From assembly GCA_051954855.1 (NCBI GenBank), contig JBQCHH010000008.1:18978-82977 (forward strand): a DNA stretch of 64,000 nt, given 5' to 3'. The notes under the pieces are model-generated. The model saw only the letters and a list, made by a program, of their open reading frames with translations. It did not search any database and had not been told where the DNA came from. The stretch is from Solirubrobacterales bacterium. Lineage in GTDB: Bacteria > Actinomycetota > Thermoleophilia > Solirubrobacterales > 70-9. Of this stretch, positions 5,963 to 46,505 are shown one piece after another. The position numbers and the translations under genes are program-made. Numbering within the stretch: position 1 is the stretch's first letter; each line of letters opens with the position of its first letter.

Positions 5963-6036
<74 letters not shown>

Positions 6037-6118: not shown

Positions 6119-6178
6119 TTGGACCGTAAACAGTCCATTTGGACCGTAAACAGTCCATATGGATGGTATTCTGTCCAA
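6119..6178. promoter_or_regulatory. Tandem 20-bp operator-like repeats (TTGGACCGTAAACAGTCCAT x2 plus one degenerate copy) upstream of the MNT-like gene
   Basis: 6119-6138 and 6139-6158 are identical. Each contains the inverted repeat TGGAC-N8-GTCCA. A third degenerate unit (ATGGATGGTATTCTGTCCAA) follows at 6159-6178, directly before ATG 6181. Confidence 0.5.
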
Positions 6179-6180
6179 GA

Positions 6181-8850: not shown

Positions 8851-8924
8851 TGGAGTCAGCCTAGTCAACGCGCCCCTCGCACATTCCTCAGCGCGTTCTG
8901 AGGCGGTCGGATAGCCTGCTGCCC

Positions 8925-9407: not shown

Positions 9408-10081
9408 GCGCCGACCCGGCGACGCTTCCGCAGGCTGCCCGCGAGCAGCTGGAAAAGGCGCTCGAACTGCTCGCCGAGGAGCGGGCCTCGGTCAGCTCGG
9501 TGGTCGACGAGCGGGCCTGGCAGGTACACGTCGTCGACAGCCTCACCGGATTGGAGGTGCCCCAGCTACGCCAAGCGGGTCGCATCGCGGACGTGGGCGC
9601 GGGAGCGGGCTTTCCGGGCCTGGCGCTGGCCGTGGCCCTGCCCGACGCCCAAGTCGACTTGATCGAGTCGGTCGGACGCAAGTGCGAGTTCATGCGCCGC
9701 GCCATCGAGGCGGCCGGAATCGACAACGCCACTGTTCTCAACACCCGCTCCGAGGATTGGGCCGGCTCCGGGGGACGCGAGGCCTACGACACTGTCACCG
9801 CCCGCGCCGTCGGCCGTCTCTCGACCCTCGCCGAGCTCGCGAGCCCGCTTCTGAAGCCAAATGGCGTCCTGGTTGCCTGGAAGGGCAAGCGCGACGCGGA
9901 TGAAGAGCGGCAGCTTGCGAACGCGTCTGAAGACCTCGCCGTGGCCCCTGAGCAGATCCTCGACGTCGGCAACCGCGCCGGCTCCGAGCACCGCCACCTC
10001 CACGTAGCCCGCAAGATCGGCCCCACGCCGCCAAACCTGCCTCGCAAGCCCGGAATAGCCAAGAAGCGCCCCAAGGGCTAG
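9404..10081 (+). CDS. rsmG: 16S rRNA (guanine527-N7)-methyltransferase RsmG (GidB)
   Basis: VVDSL, IADVGAGAGFPGLALAV (SAM motif I), DLIESVGRKCEFM, TARAVG, WKG. GTGA overlap with jag. Confidence 0.9.
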   Translation: MSADPATLPQAAREQLEKALELLAEERASVSSVVDERAWQVHVVDSLTGLEVPQLRQAGRIADVGAGAGFPGLALAVALPDAQVDLIESVGRKCEFMRRAIEAAGIDNATVLNTRSEDWAGSGGREAYDTVTARAVGRLSTLAELASPLLKPNGVLVAWKGKRDADEERQLANASEDLAVAPEQILDVGNRAGSEHRHLHVARKIGPTPPNLPRKPGIAKKRPKG

Positions 10082-10848
10082 CGACGCTTCTTTTTCTTTT
10101 TAGGGGGAGGCGGTGGCGGTTTCGCGGCCTGGATAGCCGCGGCGCCTTCAGGCGTCGCCGCAACCGGCGGCGGGATGATTTTCTGGATCACGAACGACTG
10201 CCCGATCGTCCAGAAGTTGGTGGTGATCCAGTAGAGGATCAGCCCCGCGGGGAAGTTGAGGATGAAGGGAACGAAGACCAGCGGCAACAGGAACATCATC
10301 GTCCGCTGGCTTTTGTCAGCGGTTACCGACATCACCATGCCGGAGACGAGCTGGGTGCCGACGTAGAGGATCAGCAACGCGATCAGTTCGCCCCCCGTCG
10401 CCTTTCCGGTCAGGTCATGGATGAAGAGGAATTCGGCTCCATAGGCGCTGCAGTGGCCGGCGGCTTCACAGCCCATGTCCGGGGGAAGCTCGTGGCGGAG
10501 GACGTAGAAGAGCGTGATGAAGACCGGCAGCTGGAGCAGCAGCGGCAGGCAGGAGGCGAAGGGATTGACTTTGTTCTCTTTGTAGAAGCGCATCATTTCC
10601 TGCTGCATGCGCTGTTTGTCGTTTTTGTACTTCTCCTGCAGCTCCTTGATCTGCGGCTGCAGGGCCTGCAGCGCGCGCATCCCTTTCAGCTGTTTGTAGG
10701 TCAGCGGAATCAGGATCGCCCGCGTAACGACGGTCAGGGCGATGATCGACATTCCCCAGCTGAGGCCGGCGTTGTCGTGGAAGAACTTCAGGACCGCGTT
10801 CGCGATATCGATCAGCGGCTGCAGGATGTTTGCGTCAGGCAGGATCAC
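10078..10848 (-). CDS. yidC: Membrane protein insertase YidC/Oxa1 family
   Basis: [74 protein letters not shown], basic C-terminal tail KKKKKRR. Confidence 0.9.
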   Translation of the reverse strand: [256 protein letters not shown]

Positions 10849-11120
10849 GGGTGGGGAGCTTTGCGGTGGTAGTCGGCGGGGTGGACCGGGCCGGTGCGGA
10901 GCGTGAATCTATCGGGGACGGGGTCGAAGCCGCCGTGACTGAAGGGATTGCAGCGCAGAAGCCGCCATCCGGCAACGAGAACACCGCGGCTTACGCCGAA
11001 GCGCTCGACCGCCTCCACAGCATAGGCAGAGCAGGTCGGCTCGTAGCGGCAGCGGCGGGGAAGGTGCGGGGAAATCCAGCGCTGATAGGCGCGGATGGGG
11101 GTGAGAAGGAGCCGTTTCAC
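10845..11120 (-). CDS. yidD: Membrane protein insertion efficiency factor YidD
   Basis: IRAYQRWISPHLPRRCRYEPTCSAYAVEAVERFG...RLLRCNPFSHGGFDPVP. Confidence 0.9.
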   Translation of the reverse strand: MKRLLLTPIRAYQRWISPHLPRRCRYEPTCSAYAVEAVERFGVSRGVLVAGWRLLRCNPFSHGGFDPVPDRFTLRTGPVHPADYHRKAPHP

Positions 11121-11128
11121 GTGGAACG
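11113..11128. promoter_or_regulatory. parS-like near-palindrome CGTTTCACGTGGAACG
   Basis: 13 of 14 core positions match the widespread parS core GTTTCACGTGAAAC. Lies on the rnpA stop / yidD start junction, about 3 kb from parAB. Confidence 0.35.
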
Positions 11129-11473
11129 CACCTTCGCCAGAGCCTCCTCGAGGTTGGCGGCGACGCCCGCCACTCCCTCTTTCTCGATCAAGTCATTGAT
11201 CTCCCTGCGGGCGACGATGACGAAATCATGGCGCGGGGGTAGACGATCGGCAAGGCCCCAGAAAGCCTCACGCAGCACCCGCTTCACCTTGTTGCGATCG
11301 ACCGCTCCGCCCACCTTGCGACTGACCGAGACGCCCAGCCGCACGTCCTCGCGCTCCTCGTCTTTGCGCGGGAACGTGTAGAGCACGAGATAGCGGGTCG
11401 CATGGGAGGACCCGTCGCGATACACGCGGTCGAACTCGCCGCTGCGCGAGAGGCGGCGTCGCCGGCCGGGCAT
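11117..11473 (-). CDS. rnpA: Ribonuclease P protein component
   Basis: Basic 118-aa protein: RLSRSGEFDRVYRDG, RLGVSVSRKVGGAVDRNKVKRVLREAF (RNR-like motif). Directly follows rpmH. Confidence 0.9.
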   Translation of the reverse strand: MPGRRRRLSRSGEFDRVYRDGSSHATRYLVLYTFPRKDEEREDVRLGVSVSRKVGGAVDRNKVKRVLREAFWGLADRLPPRHDFVIVARREINDLIEKEGVAGVAANLEEALAKVRST

Positions 11474-20996: not shown

Positions 20997-22012
20997 CCCC
21001 CAACACCAACAGCGCCTGAGAGGGGGCGCTGCGCTTCGGCTTCGAAAGCCTCTCCCGTCAGCGGGAACGAGGGGGCTCCGGGGAAGTTGACGGTGAGGTC
21101 GCCGGTCCAGGTCTTGGTCCCGTCGGGACTCGCCGTGTAGACGCCGACGCCGTGGAACGGAGGTGGCGGCGCAGCTTCGGCGTGGGTCAGAGCGTCATTG
21201 ACGACGAGGCTGCCGGAGTGCTGAGCGGTGACGGCGAGGCTGCCTGAATGCTGAATGGCGACGGCGAGGCGGATGATCGCGACCGAGCCGAGGGCCTGTT
21301 CGGACCTGGCGAAGAAAATCGGATGGAACAGAAGAGTCGTCGCGGAAAAATCAGCGGATTCGGTGCCGCGCCGCCACCCCGCCGTCAGCTCTTCACGCGG
21401 CACGAACGAGGAGAAGGGGCCCGACGAGGCAGTTGCCGATCGGCGCACGAAGAAGTGCGCGTGGGCGCAGACAGCGGTCTCCCGGCGAATGCTGCCGCCG
21501 GCGCGGTGAACCCGGACCGAGACGTAGTCGCCTTCGCCGGAGAAGCGGAAGCCGCCGACCCAGACACCGCGCCGTTTGGGGTGCCGGATGCTCCCGTGAC
21601 AGTGATGACGAGGCGGCAGCGGCGCCAGGTGAGGAGAGGGCCGGAAGCGCATGTCCAGCTTCCCGAAGCGCCCGAAATCGGCCGCCAACCTCCGGGAGGT
21701 CGCGACGCCGCGACCCAAGTAAGCGGTGACGGTGCCTTTCCGGCGGCCGATGATGACGACGATCGCACCCCCGATCTCGGTGGCCTCGACCCTGTAGCCG
21801 CTCGCGGTCTTGATCCGGAGGGTGGGCCGGAAATCGAAGCCTTGCTTCCTCGTGGAAGTCTCCTTTCGCACCAGCGGGACGATCTGCCCCCAGGCGGTTG
21901 CGGCGGGCCCCAGTCGCTCGAGCGGGACTTGCGCCTGAGCCACGGACGCGCTCGAGGCGACCAAGACGAGCAGCGCCGGCAAAAGCAAGAGGACCGGAAG
22001 CCCGCGCCTCAT
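20993..22012 (-). CDS. Secreted protein of unknown function, partner Q1 of the S1 protease; paralogue of 23013..23945
   Basis: Signal peptide [28 protein letters not shown]. Blocks shared with Q2: YL.(R/K)GVAT..RL.A.FG.FGK..MRF, YVSV.VHRA.G, PFHG.G.Y.A.PDG..TWTGDL.VNFPG.P..PLTG. ATGA overlap with the upstream protease gene. Confidence 0.7.
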
Positions 22013-22986
22013 CTCAGCCTCGCCACCCGTCCGTAGAGCCGCGCCACTTCCTGGCCGAAGTAGGACCCGTAGTCGGTCGCGGGGTCACGGGGATAGGCGT
22101 AGTCGGTAACGCTGTTCAGCGTGTCGCCTCCGATCGTCCAACCGCCGCCGGAGGCGCCACCGGTCACGTTGCAGGACACGGCCAGGTTCAGCGGGCCTTT
22201 CATCAGATAGCTCAGCGCGTCATGGGCGAGAAACGGCGTCTGCGAGCAAAGTCGCTGGGTTTCGCCGTCGAAGGGCGGTCCGGCTGGATAACCGTGAACG
22301 TCGAACACCTGGCGGGCTGGCTGGTTCCAGGCGATCCCGTCCCCGCCAACCGCTGCCTCCAGCGACTGCCCGCGTTCGTTGCGCCCGACCACAGCGGCGC
22401 CGACGTCGGCGTCCTCGCTCTCCTCCGACATCCACAGCTTCGTCGCGTCGAGATGGGTGGCGGGGAAAACCCCGAACGGCCGTTGTCCGAAGCGGAAGCC
22501 CGGAACGAAGACCCAGAGCCTGTCGTACCAGTGGTGGTTGGAGAAGCGGTTGAAGACGCAGTGTCCGGCGGTGAAGACGACACTGCGGTTGGGAGCGTTC
22601 ACCGAAGTGCCCGAGCAGCGCGCGGGGATTCCGTCTACGAGAAAGAAGACCACGCCGTTGCGGCGAAGCTCTTCGCTCGTCGGGTACGCTACTTCGTCAA
22701 AAGTCACGCCAGAAGCAGTGGCAGCCGTCGCCATGACCGCCCCTGGCCGTCCGTCCGGTTCGGCCCCCCGGCTGAGATGGAGGCTGGGGGGCGAGCCTTC
22801 CATCGGTTTCGCCGCGCGCATCCGCGCGGGGGTCCAGTAGCGCAGAGCCTGCTGGGTCAAGGAGGGGTCGATCCGGACGCTTGCCCGCGCCGACGATCCC
22901 CCGCCGAAGAGGGCGACGAGCAGCGCACCGAAAACGAGCACACCGACTTTCCAGGGGACGCCGGGAGCCCCGCCTGGCCGCATCAT
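22009..22986 (-). CDS. Secreted trypsin-like serine peptidase (family S1), copy P1
   Basis: Signal/TM segment, then VVFTAGHC (His), DVGAAVV (Asp) and TGGASGGGW (Ser nucleophile). Paralogue of 23942..24955. Confidence 0.75.
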   Translation of the reverse strand: MMRPGGAPGVPWKVGVLVFGALLVALFGGGSSARASVRIDPSLTQQALRYWTPARMRAAKPMEGSPPSLHLSRGAEPDGRPGAVMATAATASGVTFDEVAYPTSEELRRNGVVFFLVDGIPARCSGTSVNAPNRSVVFTAGHCVFNRFSNHHWYDRLWVFVPGFRFGQRPFGVFPATHLDATKLWMSEESEDADVGAAVVGRNERGQSLEAAVGGDGIAWNQPARQVFDVHGYPAGPPFDGETQRLCSQTPFLAHDALSYLMKGPLNLAVSCNVTGGASGGGWTIGGDTLNSVTDYAYPRDPATDYGSYFGQEVARLYGRVARLR

Positions 22987-23012
22987 GGACCAGAGTCTAT
23001 CCGCGTACTCGC

Positions 23013-23945
23013 CTAGAACGGCGCTTCGAGGAAGGTCTTGAAGTCCGGGCCCGTGAGGGGGTAGCGGGGGTCGCCGGGGAAGTTGACGCTGAGGTCGCCG
23101 GTCCAGGTGGTGCTGCCGTCGGGGGCGGCGCGGTAATGGCCGGCGCCGTGGAACGGAGCCGGAGGTGAGAGATCGGCGGCGGTGGCGGCTTCGTTGACGT
23201 GGAACGCTTTATGAGGGTCGGCGAAGGCGGCCCTGATGATCGCCAGCTTGCCTCGGCTTTCTTCGTGCGTCGCCAAAAGCTCTGATATCGGGCCGAATTC
23301 GAGCGCGAGGAGGCGGGTGAAGTCGACCCCGTGGCGCGACTCGGCCAGGAAGGCGGAGGGAGTCACGAAGAAAATGTTGCCGCCGCCGTTGGAATGGCGA
23401 TGGGGATGAGGGTGGGGACGCCGCGGACACCGTCCCCCCGGTTCCAGAATCCCTCCGGCAGCTCGATGGACGTGAACCGAGACGTAGCCGTTTTCTCCAC
23501 GGAAGCGGAGGCTGCCGACGAAGATGCCCTTGCGTCGAACGAGCCGGAAGGTGCCTAGGCAAACAGCGCGCTTGCTCGTTTCGTGGAAGCGCATCAGGAC
23601 CTTGCCGAAGTTGCCGAAGGTTGCCTGCAGCCGCTCCGGGGTCGCTACCCCCTTGGCGAGGTAGATGGTCTCGGCAACAGCCTCCCGATGCTGGTTGGAG
23701 ACCACGAGGGTCACCGCGCTGCCGAAGGTCGAAACCCCTACTTTGTAGCCGCCAGACGAAGGTTCCACCTGGAAGCCGGAGCGAAAAACGTGGAGAGGGG
23801 GAACGGGCGCTCCGACCTTGGTCATCAGCTTGCGCGGCGGCAGCGGCGGCAAGAGCCGTTCTTCTTCTGCGGCGTGAGCGGCGGGTGCCGCCAGCAGCGC
23901 CACTGCCAGCGCGAAAGGAATGAGGATGGTGAGCCGGAGACTCAT
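23013..23945 (-). CDS. Secreted protein of unknown function, partner Q2; paralogue of 20993..22012
   Basis: Signal peptide MSLRLTILIPFALAVALLAAPAAHA. Same conserved blocks as Q1. Contains a His-rich patch, CPRRPHPHPHRHSNGGG. ATGA overlap with the upstream protease P2. Confidence 0.7.
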   Translation of the reverse strand: MSLRLTILIPFALAVALLAAPAAHAAEEERLLPPLPPRKLMTKVGAPVPPLHVFRSGFQVEPSSGGYKVGVSTFGSAVTLVVSNQHREAVAETIYLAKGVATPERLQATFGNFGKVLMRFHETSKRAVCLGTFRLVRRKGIFVGSLRFRGENGYVSVHVHRAAGGILEPGGRCPRRPHPHPHRHSNGGGNIFFVTPSAFLAESRHGVDFTRLLALEFGPISELLATHEESRGKLAIIRAAFADPHKAFHVNEAATAADLSPPAPFHGAGHYRAAPDGSTTWTGDLSVNFPGDPRYPLTGPDFKTFLEAPF

Positions 23946-24955
23946 CTCACCTTTGCCGCTCGTCCGTAGAGTCGTGCGACTTCCTTACCGAAGTAAGCGC
24001 CGAAGTCGGGGCTGGTGTCGTCGAAATAGCCGTAGTTGGTGACGCTGTTGAGCGTGTCTCTGTCGATCGTCCAGCCGCCCCCTGAGGCGCCGCCGGTGAC
24101 TCCGCAGGCGACCGCGAGGTTGAGCGGCCCGGGGAAGAGGAAGGAGTCAGGGTCGTGGCCGATGAACGGTTCGTCGCGGCAGATCCGCTGGGTTTCCCCG
24201 TCGAACGGTTCTTCCGCCGGGTAGCCGTGGACGTCGAAGGTCTGGCGCGGCTTCAGGTTCCAGGCGATCCCGGCCCCGCCGACTGCTTCGCCGAGCGTTT
24301 CGCCGCGCTGGTTGGGGCCGACCACGGCAGCGCCGACGTCGTAGTTCTCGCTGCCGCTGCGGCGCCACTGCTTGGTCGTGTCGATCCAGCGCGCCGGGAA
24401 GACGCCGAAGGGCCGCTGCCCGTAGCGGTAGGCGGGGACGAAGACCCAGCGCTCCTTGAACCAGCGCCCGCGCGGACCGCCACTGTTGATGCAGTGGGCG
24501 GCGGTGAAGACCACGCTCTGGTTTCCGGAATGGACTGCCGTCCCCGAGCAGCGGGCGTAGCCGAAAATCCCGAAGGAGATGAAGATCGCGCCGTTGATCC
24601 GGTATTCGGGCGCCGTGGGGTCGGCCACCTGTTCGAAGCCGGATGCTTCGATCGTGAGCCGCGGCAGCTCGCCCGAGACGCGGTGCGGGCGACCGCGCAC
24701 GCCGGCCCGGGAGGCGGCAGCAGCGTCGAGGCGCGAGCGCTTGATCTCGAGCGGCTTCGCTTCCCGCATCCGCTGCGGCGTCCAGAAGGCGCCGGCTTCA
24801 CGGGCGGACAGCTGCGGCACCCAGACGCCGGCACGAGCGGGGGCGGCAGCGACGGCAACGATCGTCATGAGGAGAAGGAGCCCCGCCAGCATCGCGCCCG
24901 CGAGCGCCCGTTTCGGTCCCCCGGCCCGCGCAATCATCGGCGCAAGTCTACTCAC
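23942..24955 (-). CDS. Secreted trypsin-like serine peptidase (family S1), copy P2
   Basis: VVFTAAHC, DVGAAVVG, FDVHGYPAEEPFDGETQRIC, VTGGASGGGWTI. N-terminal signal/anchor. Confidence 0.75.
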   Translation of the reverse strand: MSRLAPMIARAGGPKRALAGAMLAGLLLLMTIVAVAAAPARAGVWVPQLSAREAGAFWTPQRMREAKPLEIKRSRLDAAAASRAGVRGRPHRVSGELPRLTIEASGFEQVADPTAPEYRINGAIFISFGIFGYARCSGTAVHSGNQSVVFTAAHCINSGGPRGRWFKERWVFVPAYRYGQRPFGVFPARWIDTTKQWRRSGSENYDVGAAVVGPNQRGETLGEAVGGAGIAWNLKPRQTFDVHGYPAEEPFDGETQRICRDEPFIGHDPDSFLFPGPLNLAVACGVTGGASGGGWTIDRDTLNSVTNYGYFDDTSPDFGAYFGKEVARLYGRAAKVR

Positions 24956-37636: not shown

Positions 37637-38105
37637 GGAGATCCCACAGATACCGGTTCGGCAGGCGACGGCGGAGGACGCCGCCGCGATCGCCCGGCTC
37701 CTGCACGACTTCAACACCGAGTTCTCAGAACCGACGCCCGGTGCTGAGGCCCTGACCGAACACGCCCGGCGCCTGCTGGAGGACGGCGAGATGGCGGTGC
37801 TGCTGGCCGGCGAGGGGCCGGACGGGCTCTCCCTGCTCCGCTTCCGCCTCTCGGTCTGGACCGGAGAGCCGGAAGCCCACCTGCAGGAGCTCTACGTCGT
37901 CCCCGACCTGCGCGGCCGCGGCATCGGCCGGGCGCTAATGGAGGCGACGATCGAGTTCGCCCGCGCCGCCGGCGCCACCAACCTCGACCTCAACACCGGC
38001 GAAACCGACACCGCCGCCCGCGCCCTCTACGAGAGCATGGGCTTCACCAATCGTGAAGGCGGCCCCGGAGGGCCGTCGATGCTCTTCTACGAGCGCGAGC
38101 TCTGA
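37635..38105 (+). CDS. GNAT family N-acetyltransferase
   Basis: ATG 37635, preceded by GGGAAGGGAG. IPVRQATAEDAAAIARLL, LYVVPDLRGRGIGRALM (Q/RxxGxG/A motif), NTGETDTAARALYESMGF. Confidence 0.8.
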   Translation: MEIPQIPVRQATAEDAAAIARLLHDFNTEFSEPTPGAEALTEHARRLLEDGEMAVLLAGEGPDGLSLLRFRLSVWTGEPEAHLQELYVVPDLRGRGIGRALMEATIEFARAAGATNLDLNTGETDTAARALYESMGFTNREGGPGGPSMLFYEREL

Positions 38106-38995
38106 GCCGTCAGCTCGGTGAAGCCGATCCCCTCCGGCGGCTGCACCCGCTCGGGGTGGAAGAGGTGGGCGAGCAGCTCGACGCCGTCGATGAGGCGGGG
38201 GCCGGGGCGGGAGAAGGTCGAGGCGGCGTCGACGGCGTAGATGCGTTGCGCGTCGAGTGAAGCCAGCCGCTCCCAGTGCTCCAGCGCCTGGGCGCGAGAG
38301 TCGTCGAGGTACCAGCCGCAGGGCATCGCCACGATCACGTCGGGAGCGAGACCTTGGAGGTCTCCCCACCCCACCTGCGGCGACTTCTCGCCAGCCCGGC
38401 CGGCGACATCGACGCCACCGGCGATCTCGATCATCTCCGGGATCCAGTGTCCGCCGAGGAACGGCGGATCGAGCCACTCGAGGGCCAGGACGCGCGGCCC
38501 ATCGGCGCCATCGACTGCGCCGCGGACCGCGTCCAGCCGCCGTTCAAGACCACTCCGCAACTCGCGCGCCCGCTCTTCGATGCCCGCCGCCTCGCCCAGG
38601 CGCGTCACGTCCTCGAGCACCTCTCCCAGGGTGCTCGGGTCCTGCTGCAGCACCTGCGGCCGGCTCGGCAGCCGCGCAGCCACCGCGACGACGTCGTCGT
38701 AGGAGACGGCGCAGACCTCGCAGACCGCCTGGGTGACGATCAGATCCGGCGCCAGCTCGGCCAAGCGCTCCTCGTCGAGGCTGTAGAGCGCGCGCCCTTC
38801 GCCGACCATCTCCTTCACCGCCGCGTCGATCTCGCCGGCAGATAGTCCAGCCGGCAGCACCGTCGCCGTCAGCTGCGGCAGCTCCGCCGCGGCCGGCGGC
38901 CAGTCGCACTCGTGGGTGACGCCGACCACGCTCTCGCCAAGGCCGAGCGCAAACAGCATCTCCGTCGCCGAGGGGACAAGGCCGGCGATCCTCAC
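38087..38995 (-). CDS. Periplasmic-binding-protein-fold protein (BtuF / Fe-siderophore-binding-like) without signal peptide
   Basis: MRIAGLVPSATEMLFALGLGESVVGVTHECDWP, APDLIV, PPFLGGHWIPEMIEIAGG, resembling cobalamin-binding-like PBP family members. GTG start. Tail-to-tail 19-nt overlap with the GNAT gene. Confidence 0.6.
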   Translation of the reverse strand: MRIAGLVPSATEMLFALGLGESVVGVTHECDWPPAAAELPQLTATVLPAGLSAGEIDAAVKEMVGEGRALYSLDEERLAELAPDLIVTQAVCEVCAVSYDDVVAVAARLPSRPQVLQQDPSTLGEVLEDVTRLGEAAGIEERARELRSGLERRLDAVRGAVDGADGPRVLALEWLDPPFLGGHWIPEMIEIAGGVDVAGRAGEKSPQVGWGDLQGLAPDVIVAMPCGWYLDDSRAQALEHWERLASLDAQRIYAVDAASTFSRPGPRLIDGVELLAHLFHPERVQPPEGIGFTELTAQSSRS

Positions 38996-39097
38996 GGCAC
39001 TACCTGAAACCTCAAGTATTCTTGATAAGTGGGAGCCTTCCTGCTACGACGAAGGCTCGTCCATGCGCCGACGCGGCGCTGAAGGAAAGGGAGAATC

Positions 39098-39697
39098 ATG
39101 AGACACCTGAAGATTGCCAGCCTTGCGGGATTGACGGCGCTGATCCTGTTGGCATTTGTTGGAGTTGCGACGGCACCGGCAACCGTCCTTTGCAAAACAG
39201 GAACCGCACCGTGCGGCGCTGGATGGACGCTAGGAGCGGGCGACACAATTGGAGCCACTCTTGAGGGCTCGTCCCATTGGGAACGGGAAGGGACTGAATT
39301 CGCCACATGCACCGAAGGGATGTTTGTGATTAAACTCGAAAACCCTGGCAGTGCCGCGGAAACAGTACACGGCATCTTCAGTAGCATATCCATAAAAAAC
39401 TGCACCAATACAGTGGACACTGTAACGAATGGGCCGATTGAAGTCCATGCTATTCCCGGAAGTTCCAATGGCACACTCACAGGCAAAGCCATATTCCGAA
39501 TGCAGTTCTTCGGAATAACTTGCACCTACGGTGGGAGTGGTGACCTTGGCACGCTCACAGCAGGATCGACGGCAACACTCGACGTTAATCTGAAGATTCC
39601 TAAGGAAGAAGGCGGCATTCTCTGTCCAAGCGAAATGGAATGGGGAGCTAGATACACGGTAACCAGCCCCCTCCCCCTCTTTGTGACTGCCTCATAA
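39098..39697 (+). CDS. Small secreted Cys-rich protein, unknown family (copy A), in a low-GC islet
   Basis: Signal peptide MRHLKIASLAGLTALILLAFVGVATA and six Cys in the mature part. A/T-ending codons (ACA, GGA, ATA, AAA, GTA, ATT) are unlike all neighbours. Paralogue of 45851..46459. SD AAGGGAGA. Confidence 0.7.
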   Translation: MRHLKIASLAGLTALILLAFVGVATAPATVLCKTGTAPCGAGWTLGAGDTIGATLEGSSHWEREGTEFATCTEGMFVIKLENPGSAAETVHGIFSSISIKNCTNTVDTVTNGPIEVHAIPGSSNGTLTGKAIFRMQFFGITCTYGGSGDLGTLTAGSTATLDVNLKIPKEEGGILCPSEMEWGARYTVTSPLPLFVTAS

Positions 39698-39711
39698 GCA
39701 GTGATTAGGAC

Positions 39712-39755
39712 CTCACCCTGTCCCGTCGTCATCTGCGGTCGCGGGACAGGGTGAG
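39712..39755. terminator. Hairpin with a 14-bp perfect stem between convergent genes
   Basis: CTCACCCTGTCCCG (39712-39725), a 16-nt loop, then CGGGACAGGGTGAG (39742-39755). Confidence 0.5.
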
Positions 39756-39768
39756 CTGACACTGAGGC

Positions 39769-40637
39769 TTATGCCCCGGCAGCCAGCAGCGCTGCTGCGC
39801 CGCCTTCCATGCCGGCCTTGTTGGGGTGGAGCGGGGCGGCTAGTTCGCCTGGGGCCAGGGGTTCGACCCAGCGGGTTGAGCTGCCCTTGCAGGCGTCGTG
39901 GCCAATGCTGGCGTTGTACCAATTGACCAGCGTTGCTCCGTTTGCCGCGGCCTGGGTTGCGAGCATCGAGTCGAGGCGCTGCTCGGTCGAGCGCAGGTAG
40001 GGCACGTCCTGGAACCCGATCGGCATCTGCGGCCAGCAGCCGGACCCGGTCTCGGGGAAGATCGCCGGGTAATTGACGACGTAGATTTTCGCCAGGGGCG
40101 AGCGGGCGTGGATGCCCTGCAGCACCGCCGCGACCTTTGGCGCCGTCGCTTCGATTCGTGCCTTGAGCTGGTCGACCCCGCCGGCGTCGTACTTGTCGAG
40201 GCAGGGGTGGCTGAACGGGTTCAGGGTGATGCAGCTCTCCGCGACTTCGGAGAAGCCGATGTCGTTGCCGCCGATCGTCAGCGAGACGACCGTCGTTTCG
40301 GCGTTGAGCGAGTTGAACTGCGGCGGGTTCGGCCCGTCGATTTCGACGCTCTGCGGTTCGGTCATGTCAGCAGTGGTCGCGCCGCTGCAGCTCGCGTCCC
40401 GCAGCGTCAGCCGATCCCCGGTGCCGCGAGATGGGGGTAGTTGTGGTCCGACTTGAGGCAGCCGAGCGGCAGGACCGGGTTCGGGATCAGCGGCCCGGCC
40501 GCGTAGGAGTCGCCGAGCGCGACGTAGTCGGCGGCCCGCGCTCCGACCGCCGTGGCGGCGGCGAGCGTCAGCGCTGCCAGTGCTAGTAGAAGCAGCCACA
40601 GCGCCTGCCGGCTGCGGCTGGGAATTGACTGGTTCAT
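39769..40637 (-). pseudogene. SGNH/GDSL-family secreted lipase/esterase, interrupted by a frameshift (or a sequencing error)
   Basis: Signal peptide and block I (ADYVALGDSYAAG...NYPHLAA) lie in ORF 40407..40637. Blocks II-V (ASCSGATT, LTIGGNDIGF, YVVNYP, ...HPNKAG) lie in the frame of ORF 39769..40713. The frames meet near 40415-40425 at a CCGGGG run. Confidence 0.6.
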
Positions 40638-40759
40638 GTACCTCTCCTTCCGGTTGATTGCCCTGCCGCTCCCCGGGTATGGTCAAGATAGTTTGGGGTG
40701 CGTCGAAGCGCAACCCTGCAAACTTTTGGGTACCCAGTCATTCGATCCGGAGGAGAACC

Positions 40760-41659
40760 ATGCGCCGTAACCTCATTGCCCTACTTGCGTTCCTTGCCGT
40801 CTTAGCCGCCGTTCCCGCCGGCGCCAACGCCGAACTGCCGGTGATCTACAACGGCGTCTACGGCTACGCCCACGTCAGCCCGACCGCGAGCCCGCCCGGC
40901 GCCAACGACTGGTCCTGCCAGCCGAGCGCCGCCCACCCGCGGCCGGTGGTTCTCGTCCACGGCACCTTCGCCGACATGTCCGACAGCTGGCAGGCGCTCT
41001 CGCCGCTGCTGAAGAACAACGGCTGGTGCGTCTTCGCCCTCAACTACGGCTCCTACGACGGCAGCGGCGCGCTCGGCGTCTACGGCGTCGGCGAGATCCG
41101 CAACTCGGCGCAGGAACTCTCCGCCTTCGTCGACAAAGTCCTCACCGCCACCGGTGCCGGCGAAGTCGACATGGTCGGTCACTCGCAGGGCGGGATGATG
41201 CCGCGCTACTACCTCAAGTTCCTCGGCGGGGCGGAAAAGGTCCACACCCTCGTCGGCCTCTCGCCCTCCAACCACGGCACCACCCTCGACGGGATCGGCG
41301 TCCTCGCCCGCTTCTTCCCGGGCGCCGAACAGTTCACCGGCGCGCTCTGCCCGGCTTGCGAAGAGCAGCTCGTCGGCTCGGCGTTCCTCAACGAACTGAA
41401 CGCCGGCGGCGACACGGTGCCAGGGGTCGAATACACGGTGATTCAGACCCGCTACGACCAGGTCGTCACCCCGTACACCTCGGCCTTCCTCAGCGGCGCC
41501 GACAACGTCCTGCTGCAGAACCAGTGCGTGCTCGACCTCGGCGACCACCTCTCGATGCCGTACGACCACATCGCCGACGCCGACGTGCTGACGGCGCTGG
41601 ACCCGGCGCACCCGCGCCACCCGCTCTGCACCCCGATCCTGCCGACGTCAGGGGGCTGA
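40760..41659 (+). CDS. Secreted alpha/beta-hydrolase lipase/esterase
   Basis: ATG 40760 with GGAGGAG upstream. Signal peptide MRRNLIALLAFLAVLAAVPAGANA, then VVLVHGTFAD and the nucleophile elbow VGHSQGG. Confidence 0.75.
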   Translation: MRRNLIALLAFLAVLAAVPAGANAELPVIYNGVYGYAHVSPTASPPGANDWSCQPSAAHPRPVVLVHGTFADMSDSWQALSPLLKNNGWCVFALNYGSYDGSGALGVYGVGEIRNSAQELSAFVDKVLTATGAGEVDMVGHSQGGMMPRYYLKFLGGAEKVHTLVGLSPSNHGTTLDGIGVLARFFPGAEQFTGALCPACEEQLVGSAFLNELNAGGDTVPGVEYTVIQTRYDQVVTPYTSAFLSGADNVLLQNQCVLDLGDHLSMPYDHIADADVLTALDPAHPRHPLCTPILPTSGG

Positions 41660-44144: not shown

Positions 44145-45671
44145 TCAGTCGATCAGCTTGACGTCGCTGATTTCCACCTGGTAGCGGCCTTCCTGATCCT
44201 GCGCCGGGGCCGCTTTGTTGAACCAGATCAAGAAGTACCGGGCGGGCGCTTCCAGGTGGAGCTCGACTTCGTTCAGCTCCTTGGCGTCGCTGACGGTGGC
44301 GACCGGTTCGCCCCAGCCCTGCAGTTCTTCCGGCGGTCCGGAGGCGGCGACGAAGATCTCCGCGTCCCAGCCGGGGGAGGGGGTGCGGATGATCATTTCC
44401 GCCGGCTTCACGGCTGACTTGGTGATGACGTAAAGACCGACGCCAGGATCGGGGCCGGTCTTGGTCCCGGCGAAGGTGGGACTGTCGTAGTGCTCGCTGC
44501 TCCAGGCGGTGCCGGTCGGATTGCCGTCGATCGCCAAGCCGATCTCTTCCGGGTCCTCTTCGCCGTCCCCCTGTGGGTCGTAGTCGGAGACGCCGGAGAG
44601 CGGGATCGGGCTGCCCTTGCCCTTGAGGGCACCGCCCCCGCCCCCGCTCTCGCCGCTGCCGATCAGCTGCACGGCCAGCAGGGCCGCGCCGGCGGCGAGG
44701 ACGAGCAGCGCGATCGCCAGCCGGGAGCGCCGGCGGCCGCCGTTGAGCTTGCGTTCGGCCGGCGGCACCGCCTCCAGCACGGTCGTCGCCTCGCCGGTCG
44801 CCGAGCCCGCCCGCGCCGCCTCGACTTCGAGCGCGGTCGCCAGGTCGGCGATCAGCTCGCCGACCTCCTGGTAGCGCTCGGTCGGGTCCTTGGCGGTCGC
44901 CCGCTCGACCGTCATCGCCGCCGCGGCCGAGAGCTCCGGCCGGCGCTGCTGGACGTCGGGCAGCTCTTCGTTGACGTGTTTCATCGCCACCCCGACCTGA
45001 CTGTCGGCGTGGAAGGGGACCTGGCCGATCAGCATCTCGTAGAGGACGACGCCGAGCGAGTAGATGTCGGAGCGCTGGTCGACCGGGTGGCCCATCGCCT
45101 GCTCGGGGGAGACGTAGTCGGTGGTGCCGAGGACGCGGCCGGTCGCGGTCATCCCGTCCTGCTCGAGCTGGCGCGAGATGCCGAAGTCGGTCAGCTTCGC
45201 CCGCCCCTCGGAGTCGATCAGCACGTTCTGCGGCTTGATGTCGCGGTGGACCATCCTGCGGGCGTGGGCGACGGTGAGCCCGCGGGCGATCTCGATCGCA
45301 TAGGCGAGCGCCTCCTGGGCGTCGAGTGCGCCGACCCGGTTGATCCGCTGCTTCAGCGTCTCTCCCTCGACGTATTCGAAGACAATGTAGGGGTGGCCGC
45401 CGTCCTCGCCGGCGTCGATCACGGCGACGACGTTGGGGTGCGAGAGCTTCGCCACCGCCCGCGCCTCCTGCCGGAAGCGCTCCAGCTGGTCGGCCTGCTC
45501 GGACATCTCCCGGTGCATCACCTTCACCGCCACCGGGCGGTCGAGCGTCGTATCCCGCGCCAGATACACGGTCGACATCCCGCCGCTGCCCAGCTTCGCC
45601 TCCAGCTTGTAGCGCCCGGAGAGCACGGTCCCGATCATCTGCGAGCTGGGGGAGGAGGCCGGGTCGGTCAC
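44145..45671 (-). CDS. Ser/Thr protein kinase with one TM helix and an unassigned ~190-aa extracellular domain
   Basis: LGSGGMSTVYLA, AVKVM, HRDIKPQNVL, DFGIS, GTTDYVSPEQ. TM helix LAIALLVLAAGAALLAV. Start uncertain: 45731 ATG, 45671 GTG or 45638 ATG. Confidence 0.8.
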   Translation of the reverse strand: MTDPASSPSSQMIGTVLSGRYKLEAKLGSGGMSTVYLARDTTLDRPVAVKVMHREMSEQADQLERFRQEARAVAKLSHPNVVAVIDAGEDGGHPYIVFEYVEGETLKQRINRVGALDAQEALAYAIEIARGLTVAHARRMVHRDIKPQNVLIDSEGRAKLTDFGISRQLEQDGMTATGRVLGTTDYVSPEQAMGHPVDQRSDIYSLGVVLYEMLIGQVPFHADSQVGVAMKHVNEELPDVQQRRPELSAAAAMTVERATAKDPTERYQEVGELIADLATALEVEAARAGSATGEATTVLEAVPPAERKLNGGRRRSRLAIALLVLAAGAALLAVQLIGSGESGGGGGALKGKGSPIPLSGVSDYDPQGDGEEDPEEIGLAIDGNPTGTAWSSEHYDSPTFAGTKTGPDPGVGLYVITKSAVKPAEMIIRTPSPGWDAEIFVAASGPPEELQGWGEPVATVSDAKELNEVELHLEAPARYFLIWFNKAAPAQDQEGRYQVEISDVKLID

Positions 45672-45850
45672 TTGCGGGACAACGTTACGACGCAGGCGGG
45701 ATGAGCGCCATTTGCAGCCATCTTCGGGCATGCATCCATGCAGAAGGATGTTTTAGGTACGCATTCGTTTTTGACTACTTCTTCTTGTGGGACTACTAAT
45801 AGAGGCAAACGATCCGGCGTCCTCAGGGCGCCGGCTAAGGGAGAGATCAA

Positions 45851-46459
45851 ATGAATTGCCTGAAGATTCTCGGGCTCGCAGCGATCGTGGCTGCGGCCCT
45901 AACGGCGCTCGCCGGAGCTGGAACTGCCGGAGCGACCGTGTTCTGCCCCACTACATCGACACCGTGCCAGTCGAAGCCGTACGAAGTGGGGACGGCAGTC
46001 GACGCAAACCTGAGTAACAAAGCAATAATTGAGAATATCTTAGGTGAAGCGTTGGTCCAGTGTACGGAAGGGACACTGAAGGGCAAACTCGCCCACGAAG
46101 GCTCCGGAACCGAAACAGTTCTCGGGACCGTCGAAAGCCTCACGTGGGGTAAATGCAACGCTGCGATTGCCACGGTGGCCGAAGGGTTCTATGAAGTTCA
46201 TAGCATCGTCAATACCGACAACGGCACAGTGACAGGCGGAAATACCGAAGTGACATTCGATATCCTCACGAACATCAGCTGCACCTATAGCGTCGAGAGA
46301 GAAGACCTCGGTACGCTCAAAGGCGGGGCCCCGGCAACCCTTGACATTAACGCAGATCTCACCAAGACGGGAGGCGGCAACCTGTGTCCCGGATTCGTGT
46401 TTTGGACAGCTGAATACAAATTCGCAGAACCACTTCCACTCTACGTCGAGTCTAAATAG
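45851..46459 (+). CDS. Small secreted Cys-rich protein, unknown family (copy B), in a low-GC islet
   Basis: Signal peptide MNCLKILGLAAIVAAALTALAGAGTAGA and six mature Cys. Aligns with copy A at ATV(L/F)C, CTEG, ETV.G, EVH, NGT.TG, (T/S)CTY, DLGTL..G..ATLD(V/I)N, LCP, PLPL(F/Y)V. Confidence 0.7.
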   Translation: MNCLKILGLAAIVAAALTALAGAGTAGATVFCPTTSTPCQSKPYEVGTAVDANLSNKAIIENILGEALVQCTEGTLKGKLAHEGSGTETVLGTVESLTWGKCNAAIATVAEGFYEVHSIVNTDNGTVTGGNTEVTFDILTNISCTYSVEREDLGTLKGGAPATLDINADLTKTGGGNLCPGFVFWTAEYKFAEPLPLYVESK

Positions 46460-46474
46460 ATAACTGACACCGGT

Positions 46475-46503
46475 ATTGCGGCCACTCGGCGGGTGGCCGC
46501 AAT
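46475..46503. terminator. Hairpin with an 11-bp perfect stem between convergent genes
   Basis: ATTGCGGCCAC-tcggcgg-GTGGCCGCAAT, followed by TAT on the plus strand. Confidence 0.5.
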
Positions 46504-46505
46504 TA

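What the first reader, a model, noticed from the sequence alone, without database searches (positions are those of the whole stretch)
38996..39768. Low-GC single-gene islet A encoding a small secreted six-Cys protein of an unrecognised family
**Seen in sequence.**
- Composition drops sharply. For example 39361-39420 has 25 G+C of 60, against 42 of 60 at 38701-38760 in the neighbouring gene.
- The only convincing ORF (39098-39697) has a signal peptide and six mature cysteines. Its codon usage is dominated by A/T-ending codons (ACA, GGA, ATA, AAA, GTA, ATT), unlike every other gene in the window.
- A strong SD (AAGGGAGA) precedes it, and a 14-bp perfect hairpin follows it.
- It has a clear paralogue 6.7 kb away (45851-46459) in a second islet of the same kind.

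**Inference.** This is either a recently acquired or rapidly turning-over secreted effector, adhesin or toxin-like family, or a gene kept AT-rich for expression reasons.
Basis: partly seen in the sequence, partly recalled or inferred. Interest (0 to 1): 0.65.

Follow-up and report, generated by a model that had tools for sequence, protein, structure and literature searches.

The report
Mobile secreted surface-protein gene cassette
The low-GC islet is a self-contained expression cassette for one member of a large, uncurated family of small secreted proteins found here only in soil Solirubrobacterales; the low GC is a trait of the whole family, not a sign of recent foreign origin, and the genes probably supply variable parts of an undescribed cell-surface fibre or adhesion system.

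Summary

The protein matches no curated family or solved structure. The family is nevertheless large (2,888 clusters at 50% identity). All 54 confirmed genome loci are Solirubrobacterales or unclassified actinomycete MAGs, with up to 10 copies seen per genome.

All 125 members examined are GC-poor relative to their hosts. They share a specific codon pattern (AAA, GAA, ACA, AGA). None occurs on phages or plasmids. Recent foreign acquisition is therefore not supported.

Rapid turnover is supported. The islet B site is empty in two syntenic relatives, and three genomes carry copies at four different intergenic sites. A resident orthologue pair is under purifying selection (dN/dS 0.14).

In about 33 of 57 loci the family flanks a conserved cluster: an NHL-propeller/Fn3 protein and an Ig-like adhesin-type stalk protein (PrgB, antigen I/II-like). 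A membrane-anchored collagen-like protein and a lipoprotein recur nearby in 9 and 8 loci.

Best reading: a variable extracellular component of a lineage-specific surface fibre or adhesion apparatus. The function is inferred. The cause of the codon pattern and the mobility mechanism are unexplained.

The parts
38996..39768 (+). Islet A: the complete intergenic cassette between the btuF-like gene (38087-38995, -) and the SGNH-hydrolase-like gene (39769-40713, -)
   Evidence: GC trough. Boundaries are set by the flanking ORFs. Homology with syntenic relative L016 on the btuF side ends at about window 39002.
39022..39050 (+). Promoter-like boxes TTGATA-N17-TACGAC, 47 nt upstream of the ATG (inferred, not an E. 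coli consensus)
   Evidence: TTGAnn-N16-18-TAnnWn lies 40-95 nt upstream of the ATG in 55 of 119 family genes, with median distance 53 nt and a 17-nt spacer in 39 of the 55. The E. coli-type consensus scan finds nothing.
39068..39083 (+). 5'-UTR GC-rich stem-loop (GCGCCG-ACG-CGGCGC) immediately 5' of the SD
   Evidence: The stem is conserved across 60 family 5' UTRs: 82% of cells pair in register against 32-44% when slid. There are 16 double-change cells, reached by 0 of 500 shuffles.
39087..39094 (+). Shine-Dalgarno AAGGGAGA
   Evidence: Nearly all family members have AAGGAG-type SDs and ATG starts.
39098..39697 (+). Family gene A: 199-aa precursor, Sec-type signal peptide (residues 1-28, cleavage AxA|T inferred), about 171-aa all-beta mature domain with 6 Cys
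   Evidence: The AF2 model has pLDDT 84 with 11 beta-strands, and residues 1-25 are below pLDDT 50.
39712..39755 (+). Terminator-like hairpin, 14-bp perfect stem, 16-nt loop, no T-tract
   Evidence: z = -5.7.
45701..46505 (+). Islet B: an approximately 800-bp insertion/deletion relative to two syntenic relatives, lying between the purM stop and the conserved upstream region of the Ser/Thr kinase gene
   Evidence: Junctions mapped by local alignment to L016 and L005, where purM and the kinase gene are 23-43 nt apart.
45771..45799 (+). Islet B promoter-like boxes TTGACT-N17-TACTAA
45851..46459 (+). Family gene B: 202-aa paralogue, 38-40% identical to A, GC 0.553, GC3 0.62
46475..46503 (+). Islet B terminator-like hairpin (13-14-bp stem)

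Best explanation
Islet A is a complete, autonomous expression cassette. It comprises promoter-like boxes, a conserved 5'-UTR stem-loop, a strong SD with an ATG start, the ORF, and a hairpin terminator.

The product is a Sec-secreted, disulfide-bonded, all-beta protein of about 171 aa after cleavage. It has no membrane anchor, lipobox or sortase signal.

It belongs to a large, uncurated multigene family. Every confirmed genome locus comes from Solirubrobacterales or unclassified actinomycete MAGs.

The family's usual genomic home is a conserved cluster: [small genes]n, an NHL-propeller/Fn3 protein of about 1,100 aa, an Ig-like-domain adhesin-type stalk protein of about 890 aa, then [small genes]n. 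A membrane-anchored collagen-like protein and a lipoprotein often follow. An HxlR-type regulator is often nearby. The window's MAG carries two such stalk-protein genes under the same locus-tag prefix, listed on a 75,868-bp contig.

A and B are dispersed extra copies. The most likely role (inferred) is a variable, abundantly made extracellular component of a lineage-specific cell-surface fibre or adhesion apparatus. That component could be a subunit, a decoration or a binding module.

The low GC is an intrinsic, long-standing property of the family and cluster, seen as a specific preference for A-ending codons. It is not a footprint of recent import. What changes quickly is the number and position of cassettes, which are gained and lost at intergenic sites by an unknown mechanism that needs no transposase.
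For: Shown by tool results:
- Family size and multi-domain forms: 2,888 clusters at 50% identity with E <= 1e-3, 651 with E <= 1e-30, including proteins with 2, 3 or 4 tandem domains.
- Taxonomy: all 54 confirmed loci in GTDB species representatives are Solirubrobacterales or unclassified Actinomycetes MAGs. Up to 10 copies were seen per genome in 31 genomes.
- Composition: 125 of 125 members have GC below the local background (median 0.590 against 0.676), and 110 of 125 by more than 5 points. Family GC3 has a median of 0.70.
- Codon pattern: AAA 79%, GAA 82%, ACA 34% and AGA 28%, against 16, 20, 5 and 4% in host genes. ATC, AAC and GAC stay C-ending.
- The same pattern appears in the NHL-propeller protein (0.65), the collagen-like protein (0.69) and the lipoprotein (0.54). 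The host median is 0.21.
- Cluster: the two large genes adjoin family genes in about 33 of 57 loci.
- The NHL/Fn3 assignment rests on a TRIM3 NHL match at 4.6e-7 and on weak Fn3 and beta-propeller Pfam hits.
- The stalk-protein model (pLDDT 69, N-terminal half 80-90) matches PrgB Ig-like domains at E = 1e-13, and antigen I/II C123, SspB and UafA at 1e-7 to 2e-5.
- Collagen repeat PF01391 scores above the gathering threshold.
- Stalk-protein homologues ACTHNP_09995 and ACTHNP_10155 share the locus-tag prefix of the window's gene ACTHNP_01365.
- Cassette anatomy: ATG start plus AAGGAG SD in nearly all members, promoter-like boxes, 5'-UTR stem, terminator hairpins.
- Turnover: synteny with L016 and L005 at 79-88% aa identity. 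The islet B site is empty in both. Copies sit at four different sites and are only 40-47% identical to A or B.
- Function is retained: the L002/L003 orthologues have dN/dS 0.14. A and B keep all invariant residues.
- Signal peptide pairwise identity is 63% against 40% for the mature part. Four Cys are invariant. C32 and C39 are both present in 36 sequences and both absent in 4.
- No phage, plasmid, viral-contig or defence-system link.

Inferred:
- Sec secretion and AxA cleavage, from the sequence pattern and the low-pLDDT N-terminus.
- A surface-apparatus role, from the gene neighbourhood and the adhesin-like folds of the partner proteins.
Against: - No direct evidence of expression, localisation or physical association with the large proteins.
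- The window itself contains neither large gene. The link therefore rests on relatives and on locus tags of the same MAG, whose contig could not be retrieved.
- The small protein's fold has no significant match. The best matches are avidin (prob 0.90, TM 0.32/0.48) and phage 'OMP beta-barrel' models (TM about 0.4). Its own structure therefore gives no functional assignment.
- Neither the small proteins nor the stalk protein has a recognisable wall anchor.
- The promoter boxes do not meet an E. coli-type consensus, and only 55 of 119 genes match the strict pattern.
The taxonomic restriction is therefore a lower-bound picture.
- The cause of the low GC is not explained. GC3 does not track divergence (rho = 0.04), and GroES does not share the codon pattern.
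Confidence: 0.55

Rival explanations
1. Recently acquired foreign gene. The islet is a horizontally transferred fragment from a donor of about 50-55% GC that has not yet ameliorated.
For: Sharp GC and GC3 drop with clean boundaries. The islet B site is empty in two syntenic relatives. A and B are only 40-47% identical to any other member retrieved.
Against: - Every one of 125 members in at least 31 high-GC genomes shows the same depression and the same specific codon pattern.
- No member was found outside Solirubrobacterales-type MAGs, or on plasmids, phages or viral contigs.
- There is no integrase, transposase, target-site duplication, terminal inverted repeat or adjacent tRNA.
- The signal-peptide part keeps a higher GC3 (median 0.82) than the mature part (0.685).
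- The genome's own conserved cluster genes share the codon pattern.
Confidence: 0.07
2. Free soluble ligand-binding barrel. The mature domain would be an avidin- or calycin-like up-and-down beta-barrel secreted to scavenge or sequester small molecules. The paralogues would cover different ligands, and the protein would be functionally independent of the large proteins.
For: The nearest geometric neighbours of the confident AF2 model are small up-and-down barrels: avidin at prob 0.90, and phage 'OMP beta-barrel' models at prob 0.85-0.96. The protein has a Sec signal and no anchor. It is stabilised by disulfides. Many divergent paralogues exist.
Against: - TM-scores are only 0.32-0.48 with rmsd 6-16 A and E > 0.009, so there is no fold assignment.
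- Family genes are tightly and recurrently linked to adhesin-like and collagen-like surface proteins.
- Fusions of 2-4 tandem domains are more typical of structural or adhesive proteins.
Confidence: 0.15
3. Secreted toxin, bacteriocin or effector family that diversifies under conflict.
For: A small, secreted, Cys-stabilised protein that is multi-copy, divergent, and polymorphic in presence and absence.
Against: - No toxin domain and no adjacent immunity-like gene in single-gene islets A and B or in L002/L003.
- No match to defence or toxin libraries.
- Purifying selection in the orthologue pair, dN/dS 0.14.
- Up to 6-7 tandem copies with no partner genes between them.
Confidence: 0.07
4. The composition is a regulatory device; this adds to the main explanation and does not replace it. 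AT-richness and A-ending codons would be maintained by selection. One route is silencing of the cassettes by an Lsr2-type nucleoid protein that targets GC drops, followed by counter-silencing. Another is translation that depends on particular tRNAs or modifications, analogous to bldA/TTA control in Streptomyces.
For: - The codon shift is specific (A over G at wobble positions, while C stays preferred over T). It is conserved across sequences only 35-45% identical in at least 31 genomes, and shared by the whole cluster.
- It does not correlate with divergence (rho = 0.04) or with orphan status.
- Lsr2-like proteins of Actinobacteria bind regions with a distinct GC drop (PMC7002338, PMC6584129).
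- An HxlR-type regulator recurs beside the cluster in 21 loci.
Against: No Lsr2 homologue was found in the roughly 1 Mb held, but that query sequence was recalled from memory and the test is inconclusive. The tRNA repertoire is not available. There are no expression data. AT-biased mutation combined with weak codon selection could contribute, since dS is the highest in its neighbourhood at 0.67.
Confidence: 0.25
5. Outer-membrane-type beta-barrel protein inserted in a lipid outer layer.
For: Weak fold resemblance to OmpW and phage-encoded 'outer membrane protein beta-barrel' models. The strands are long, at 12-17 residues.
Against: TM is about 0.3-0.45 only. The protein has invariant disulfide cysteines, a Thr/Ser/Gly/Asn-rich composition, a non-aromatic C-terminus (…PLYVxES) and tandem multi-domain forms. 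From general knowledge, Actinomycetota of this class are not known to have a BAM-type outer membrane; this was not tested here.
Confidence: 0.03

Closest known systems
Gram-positive surface adhesin systems with Ig-like-domain stalks (Enterococcus PrgB, Streptococcus antigen I/II and SspB, Staphylococcus UafA)
   Same: The conserved ~890-aa partner protein of the family is predicted to be an array of Ig-like domains. Its best structural matches are these adhesin stalks: E = 1e-13 for PrgB, and 1e-7 to 2e-5 for antigen I/II C123, SspB and UafA. All components carry signal peptides.
   Different: There is no sequence similarity. No LPXTG sortase signal is visible at the partner protein's C-terminus. 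The small 171-aa family, which is the subject of the finding, has no counterpart in those systems.
Bacterial collagen-like surface fibres (Bacillus BclA exosporium nap, Streptococcus Scl1/Scl2); comparison from general knowledge
   Same: Nine of the fetched loci, mostly beside the cluster, encode a protein with genuine collagen triple-helix repeats (PF01391, 2e-10). It has an N-terminal membrane anchor, so it is expected to project a fibre from the cell surface.
   Different: The small family itself has no G-X-Y repeats. The C-terminal domains are unrelated as far as tested. No collagen-like gene lies in the window.
Variable surface-protein multigene families whose 5' region and signal peptide are conserved while the mature part varies (for example Mycoplasma Vsp/Vlp lipoproteins); comparison from general knowledge
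   Same: Many paralogues per genome occur in tandem arrays plus dispersed copies. The signal peptide is more conserved than the mature part (63% against 40% pairwise identity). The 5' UTRs are conserved. Presence and absence vary between close relatives.
   Different: No lipobox, no site-specific recombinase, no inversion sites and no internal repeats were found. Each copy has its own promoter-like region, so nothing indicates one-at-a-time expression.
Avidin- or calycin-like and small 8-stranded up-and-down beta-barrels
   Same: A meander of long antiparallel strands. These are the top geometric neighbours of the AF2 model.
   Different: TM is 0.32-0.48 and E >= 0.01, with no sequence signal. 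This is a resemblance only, not a fold assignment.
Classical genomic islets of horizontally acquired DNA
   Same: A sharp compositional trough, a single accessory gene between housekeeping genes, and absence from the same site in relatives.
   Different: The composition is family-wide and lineage-internal. No mobility genes, att repeats or tRNA are associated, and there is no external donor.

Membership tests
Horizontally acquired genomic island (foreign DNA) | Composition atypical for the host genome | tested here: met
   GC 0.533 and GC3 0.53, against GC 0.675-0.72 and GC3 0.77-0.92 in neighbouring genes.
Horizontally acquired genomic island (foreign DNA) | Atypical composition reflects a donor, so homologues elsewhere have a different, donor-like context and resident relatives do not share the anomaly | tested here: not met
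   All 125 homologues in at least 31 high-GC Solirubrobacterales-type genomes are GC-depressed in the same way and share the same codon pattern. No homologue occurs in plasmid, phage or viral collections.
Horizontally acquired genomic island (foreign DNA) | Mobility hallmarks: integrase or transposase, flanking direct repeats, adjacent tRNA | tested here: not met
   No flanking direct repeats and no significant terminal inverted repeats. The only tRNA in the window is 33 kb away. The islets contain a single ORF.
Horizontally acquired genomic island (foreign DNA) | Presence/absence polymorphism at the site among relatives | tested here: met
   The islet B site is empty in L016 and L005. This shows turnover but not foreign origin.
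Sortase-anchored Gram-positive pilins and MSCRAMM adhesins | C-terminal LPXTG-type sorting signal followed by a hydrophobic segment and a basic tail | tested here: not met
   The C-terminus is …SPLPLFVTAS in A and the family consensus is …SPxPLYVxES. There is no LPXTG and no C-terminal TM segment in 40 aligned members.
Type IV pilins and pseudopilins | Class III signal peptide: short basic leader, G|(F/M)xxxE cleavage motif, conserved N-terminal helix retained in the mature protein | tested here: not met
   Gly8 is common but not invariant (Ser in A), and there is no Glu at +5. The invariant AxA (A26-x-A28) followed by Thr fits signal peptidase I cleavage. Residues 1-25 are low-confidence coil in the AF2 model.
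Bacterial lipoproteins | Lipobox [LVI][ASTVI][GAS]C at the end of the signal peptide | tested here: not met
   The sequence around the first Cys is A-T-V-L-C, with Leu at position -1. This Cys is absent in 4 of 40 members, always together with C39.
Any curated protein family (Pfam-A 2025, NCBIfam 20.0, PHROGs v4, PADLOC 2.0) | Profile match at or above the curated threshold | tested here: not met
   No families for A. B has one sub-threshold chance hit, 14 bits against a cut-off of 307. Ten further family members, including multi-domain forms, have no hit that is both above threshold and aligned.
Avidin- or calycin-like beta-barrel fold | Structural superposition with TM >= 0.5 and a significant Foldseek E-value | tested here: not met
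   The best PDB match of this kind is avidin, with TM 0.32 (query) and 0.48 (target), rmsd about 8 A and E = 0.06. The best BFVD matches have TM of about 0.37-0.45.
Bacterial collagen-like surface proteins (PF01391) | G-X-Y triple-helix repeats | tested here: not met
   The feature is absent from A, B and the family. It is present only in a neighbouring cluster gene in relatives.
New Solirubrobacterales small secreted beta-protein family (defined here) | Conserved signal peptide MKYLKMLGLAAVAA.ALMAF.GAGSASA|T, four invariant Cys (71, 102, 142, 176 in A numbering), C-terminal SPxPLYV motif, length of about 190-215 aa per domain | tested here: met
   A and B align end to end with 38 other members and keep all invariant columns. 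Against the 10-sequence profile built from alignment A1, which includes A and B, the window's protein P0001 scores E = 6e-76.

The most novel reading that the evidence does not exclude
The small proteins, the NHL-propeller protein, the Ig-like stalk protein, the anchored collagen-like protein and the lipoprotein would together build a previously undescribed type of cell-surface fibre in Solirubrobacterales. The small proteins would be interchangeable, disulfide-locked subunits or tip modules with a fold that has no solved relative. Their family-specific signal peptide and the A-ending codon pattern (AAA, GAA, ACA, AGA) would form a dedicated control layer, through special processing and/or tRNA- or silencer-dependent expression. 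Cassettes would spread within the genome by a recombination mechanism that needs no transposase.
Probability: 0.15. Interest if true: 0.75.

Novelty: new variant of a known kind. Interest (0 to 1): 0.5.

Why it matters
Solirubrobacterales are abundant soil Actinomycetota that are almost uncultured, and nothing is known about their cell surface. This finding points to a large protein family (2,888 clusters at 50% identity) and a conserved multi-gene cluster. All of its components are annotated 'hypothetical', and it probably specifies a major surface structure.

It is also a clean counter-example to the habit of reading a sharp GC trough as horizontal transfer. Here the trough is an inherited, family-specific codon pattern that persists across sequences only 35-45% identical in 69% GC genomes. 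That raises a testable question about what maintains it.

Finally, the presence/absence polymorphism of complete promoter-to-terminator cassettes without mobile-element hallmarks is a tractable case of gene-family turnover.

Tried and rejected
- Pfam, NCBIfam, PHROGs and PADLOC on A and B: nothing.
- PDB sequence search: chance hits only.
- Foldseek of the confident AF2 model against PDB and BFVD: no significant match. The long list of coronavirus spike hits has TM 0.12-0.17 and is meaningless.
- The word-index homologue search returned only 9 relatives and made the family look tiny. The exhaustive profile search corrected this to 2,888 clusters.
A signal-peptide-centred subset worked.
- Viral contigs, phage records and plasmid records: no relatives.
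- Retrieval of the window MAG's own cluster contig failed because there is no exact record.
- RNAalifold predicted no structure on the gappy 5'-UTR alignment. Explicit pair counting was used instead.
- Rfam: nothing relevant.
- The E. coli-type promoter and terminator scan misses both the promoter-like boxes and the T-less hairpins.
- Hypothesis that low GC3 reflects decay of diverged or orphan copies: rejected. Spearman rho with HMM score is 0.04, and orphan copies equal cluster copies.
- Hypothesis that the AAA/GAA preference is the lineage's ordinary high-expression bias: rejected by GroES, whose A-ending fraction is 0.10.
- Search for target-site duplications, terminal inverted repeats or tRNA at the islets: none. 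An 11-nt inverted repeat flanking islet A is within my rough estimate of chance, which was not computed with a tool.
- Lsr2 homologue in the held sequence: none, but only partial genomes are held and the query came from memory.
- Literature search for prior descriptions: nothing relevant.
Full report
**1. Observation**

The region is exactly as described.
- GC falls from 0.72-0.73 in the flanking gene to 0.51-0.55 across 39100-39700, then returns to about 0.67.
- ORF 39098-39697 (+, 199 aa) has GC 0.533 and GC1/2/3 of 0.525/0.545/0.53. Six neighbouring genes have GC 0.675-0.72 and GC3 0.77-0.92.
- The SD AAGGGAGA lies at 39087-39094.
- The perfect 14-bp hairpin arms lie at 39712-39725 and 39742-39755. 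The fold is -44.3 kcal/mol, z = -5.7.
- Cysteines sit at residues 32, 39, 71, 102, 142 and 176.
- The paralogue at 45851-46459 is 38-40% identical (E = 3e-29 to 5e-32). It lies in a second trough and has its own 13-14-bp hairpin.
- tblastn finds no further copy in the window. The other GC dips hold yidC and unrelated genes.

**2. The protein and its family**

A and B match nothing in Pfam, NCBIfam, PHROGs, PADLOC or PDB sequences.

The word-index search found the window's own protein, an NCBI 'hypothetical protein ACTHNP_01365' from a Solirubrobacterales MAG, and only eight relatives. An exhaustive profile search then found 2,888 clusters at 50% identity with E <= 1e-3, and 651 with E <= 1e-30. 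Many of these proteins carry two, three or four tandem copies of the domain. Those looked up are all 'hypothetical' or unnamed metagenome proteins, and none has a Pfam domain.

A 40-sequence alignment shows the following:
- Four invariant cysteines.
- An N-terminal cysteine pair that is either present together (36 sequences) or absent together (4 sequences).
- A conserved C-terminal SPxPLYV motif.
- A signal peptide (consensus MKYLKMLGLAAVAAxALMAFxGAGSASA|TV) that is more conserved than the mature part, at 63% against 40% mean pairwise identity.

The invariant AxA followed by Thr fits signal peptidase I cleavage. There is no lipobox, no class III (pilin) motif and no LPXTG.

AlphaFold2 gives a confident all-beta model, with pLDDT 84 and pTM 0.76. 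It has eleven strands, several of them 12-17 residues long, and residues 1-25 are disordered.

Foldseek finds no significant match in the PDB or BFVD. The nearest shapes are small up-and-down barrels such as avidin, OmpW and phage 'OMP beta-barrel' models, with TM of only 0.3-0.48.

**3. Taxonomy and copy number**

A pattern-plus-tblastn scan of GTDB species representatives returned 54 confirmed loci. All are from Solirubrobacterales MAGs or unclassified Actinomycetes/Actinomycetota MAGs.

An HMM search of all held sequences found 125 family ORFs. Up to 10 were seen per genome across 31 genomes, often in tandem arrays of up to 6-7 copies.

**4. Composition is a family trait**

- All 125 members have GC below the local background (median 0.590 against 0.676). 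110 are more than 5 points lower, and none reaches the background. Median GC3 is 0.70, against about 0.9 for neighbouring genes.
- The shift is specific. AAA is 79% of Lys codons (host 16%), GAA 82% of Glu (20%), ACA 34% of Thr (5%) and AGA 28% of Arg (4%). ATC, AAC and GAC remain the preferred C-ending codons.
- The amino-acid composition is also unusual: Thr 18%, Gly 13%, and Arg 1% against 10% in the host.
- GC3 does not correlate with divergence from the family profile (rho = 0.04). It does not differ between dispersed and cluster copies.
- The signal-peptide part keeps a higher GC3 (0.82) than the mature part (0.685).
- The same A-ending Lys/Glu preference is shared by the cluster partners and by a Lys/Ala-rich histone-like protein. 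GroES does not share it (fraction 0.10). It is therefore not the lineage's general high-expression bias.
- No member occurs in IMG/VR contigs, phage records or plasmid records.

**5. Each gene is a cassette**

- Nearly all members start with ATG, preceded by an AAGGAG-type SD.
- 55 of 119 have TTGAnn-N16-18-TAnnWn boxes 40-95 nt upstream of the ATG, at a median distance of 53 nt. The boxes are TTGATA/TACGAC at 39022-39050 in A and TTGACT/TACTAA at 45771-45799 in B.
- These are not E. coli-consensus promoters, so they remain an inference.
- A GC-rich stem-loop lies immediately 5' of the SD and is conserved. In a 60-sequence alignment, 82% of cells pair in register against 32-44% when slid. There are 16 double-change cells, reached by 0 of 500 shuffles.
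- No Rfam family matches.
- Strong T-less hairpins follow both window genes.

**6. Turnover**

Two GTDB genomes (L016 and L005) are syntenic with the window across uppP, purM, Ser/Thr kinase, FAD oxidoreductase, desaturase, then btuF-like and GNAT genes, at 79-88% amino-acid identity.
- In both, purM and the kinase gene are 23-43 nt apart. Homology with the window breaks just after the purM stop (about 46505) and resumes at about 45700. Islet B is therefore an indel of about 800 bp containing exactly one cassette.
- L016 carries its family gene between btuF and GNAT, which overlap in the window. L005 carries one beyond GNAT. The window has islet A on the other side of btuF. Three genomes thus have copies at four intergenic sites, none of them shared.
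- Family members from the fetched loci, including the copy in L005, are at most 40-47% identical to A or B, so these are different paralogues.
- No target-site duplications, terminal repeats, recombinase genes or adjacent tRNA were found.
- By contrast, L002 and L003 hold an orthologous copy at the same site, between folK and a GST gene. It is 87% identical, with dN/dS 0.14 and the highest dS of its neighbourhood (0.67 against 0.22-0.46).

Resident copies are therefore under purifying selection. The rapid change is in gain and loss of copies.

**7. Genomic home and likely role**

- In about 33 of 57 loci the small genes flank two large secreted proteins.
- The first, about 1,100 aa, has an N-terminal NHL-type beta-propeller (TRIM3 NHL match, 4.6e-7) and weak Fn3 hits. 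I also read a second propeller-like region and a basic tail from the sequence, but these were not tested.
- The second, about 890 aa, is 62-78% conserved and has no sequence match anywhere. It has more than 2,856 homologues.
- Its AF2 model has pLDDT 69, and 80-90 over the first ~460 residues. Foldseek matches it to the Ig-like domain arrays of Gram-positive adhesins: PrgB at 1e-13, and antigen I/II C123, SspB and UafA at 1e-7 to 2e-5. Complement and alpha-2-macroglobulin MG-domain proteins also match.
- Clustering of all called proteins adds further recurrent neighbours:
  - a membrane-anchored collagen-like protein (PF01391, 2e-10; 9 loci)
  - a lipoprotein of about 150 aa (8 loci)
  - an HxlR-type regulator (21 loci)
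  - a GGDEF protein (10 loci)
- Two homologues of the 890-aa protein carry locus tags of the window's own MAG, ACTHNP_09995 and ACTHNP_10155, both listed on a 75,868-bp contig. The genome therefore has the cluster elsewhere. That contig could not be fetched.
- The window itself has neither large gene.

Several facts point the same way. The proteins are Sec-secreted and disulfide-stabilised. They are made from strong, independent cassettes. Natural fusions of 2-4 domains exist. The genes are tightly linked to adhesin-like, propeller and collagen-like surface proteins. The best-supported reading is that the family supplies variable extracellular components of a lineage-specific surface fibre or adhesion apparatus. 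This step is inference. Expression, localisation and interactions are untested.

**8. Rivals**

- Foreign acquisition is largely refuted (sections 4 and 6).
- A free ligand-binding barrel remains possible on shape alone, but it lacks fold-level support and ignores the linkage.
- A toxin or effector role has no positive evidence.
- An outer-membrane barrel is unlikely.
- A regulatory purpose for the composition adds to the main explanation and is open. It could work through silencing by an Lsr2-type protein, which in Actinobacteria targets GC drops (PMC7002338, PMC6584129). It could also work through tRNA-dependent translation. An Lsr2 search in the held sequence was negative but inconclusive.

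**9. Verdict**

The family is unrecognised, secreted, rapidly turning over and plausibly adhesin-related. It is not recently foreign.

This is a new variant of a known kind, namely a variable multigene surface-protein family within an uncharacterised surface-structure cluster. Three things remain unexplained: a fold with no solved relative, a persistent A-ending codon pattern, and cassette mobility without a transposase. Interest is moderate at 0.5.

Noticed in passing
window 45640-45731 (- strand): The longest ORF for the Ser/Thr kinase starts at ATG 45731, inside the islet B insert. In the syntenic relatives, homology begins only at about 45700. The conserved N-terminus (…VTDPASSPSSQMIGTVLSGRYKLE) suggests the true start is the GTG near 45675 or the ATG near 45640. 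The first 20-30 codons of the long ORF are probably not translated.
   Followed up: partly
window 7236-11473: Gene order rnpA, yidD-like, yidC, jag, rsmG, parA, parB on both strands indicates an origin-proximal chromosomal region. Gene identities were read from the ORF translations and not confirmed with a profile search. yidC (10078-10848) is itself a mild GC trough (about 0.60) and shares the A-ending Lys/Glu codon preference (0.59).
   Followed up: partly
window 5386-7229: A second low-GC stretch (about 0.59) lies next to the only tRNA gene of the window, tRNA-Ile(GAT) at 5962-6036. It holds small ORFs whose translations look like a nuclease-like protein and a nucleotidyltransferase-type pair. 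It could be a small tRNA-associated islet.
   Followed up: no
L039 4264-4722 (-), L020 3800-4264 (-), L035 3694-4113 (-): A Lys/Ala/Ser-rich histone-H1-like protein of 140-155 aa, with no Pfam hit, uses AAA/GAA for 81-90% of its Lys and Glu codons. That is the most extreme case of the codon pattern outside the cluster. It is possibly an abundant nucleoid protein.
   Followed up: partly
window 22012-24955 (- strand): Three adjacent ORFs of 310-337 aa have signal-peptide-like N-termini. Two of them share the motif …(Y/F)WTP.RMR.AKP.E…. All three have an elevated A-ending Lys/Glu fraction (0.52-0.62). They may be another envelope-protein gene group.
   Followed up: no
window 38976-38986 and 39811-39821: An 11-nt perfect inverted repeat (ACAAGGCCGGC / GCCGGCCTTGT) brackets islet A, with each arm inside a flanking coding region. 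My rough estimate, not computed with a tool, is that about 0.1-0.5 such pairs are expected by chance in this GC-rich 1-kb region. It is probably coincidental.
   Followed up: partly
L027 2584-3567 (-) and 20 other loci; L033 6684-7778 and 9 other loci: An HxlR-type double winged-helix regulator (21 loci) and a GGDEF diguanylate cyclase (10 loci) recur in the fetched loci. They are candidate regulators of the cluster.
   Followed up: partly
window 39769-41659, compared with L005 8340-8397 and L016 6229-9018: The stretch between the desaturase and btuF-like genes is a variable hot spot. The window has an SGNH-hydrolase-like gene, a lipase-like gene and islet A there. L005 has nothing (a 57-nt gap). 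L016 has other ORFs and a lipase fragment.
   Followed up: partly
L001, L002 and L016, about 10-25 nt upstream of the -35-like box: Several cassettes share an ACTCAG(G/A)(T/A)G-like motif just 5' of the TTGAC box (L001 18011-18061 region, L002 1736-1839). A similar string lies upstream of btuF in L016. It could be a regulator binding site.
   Followed up: no
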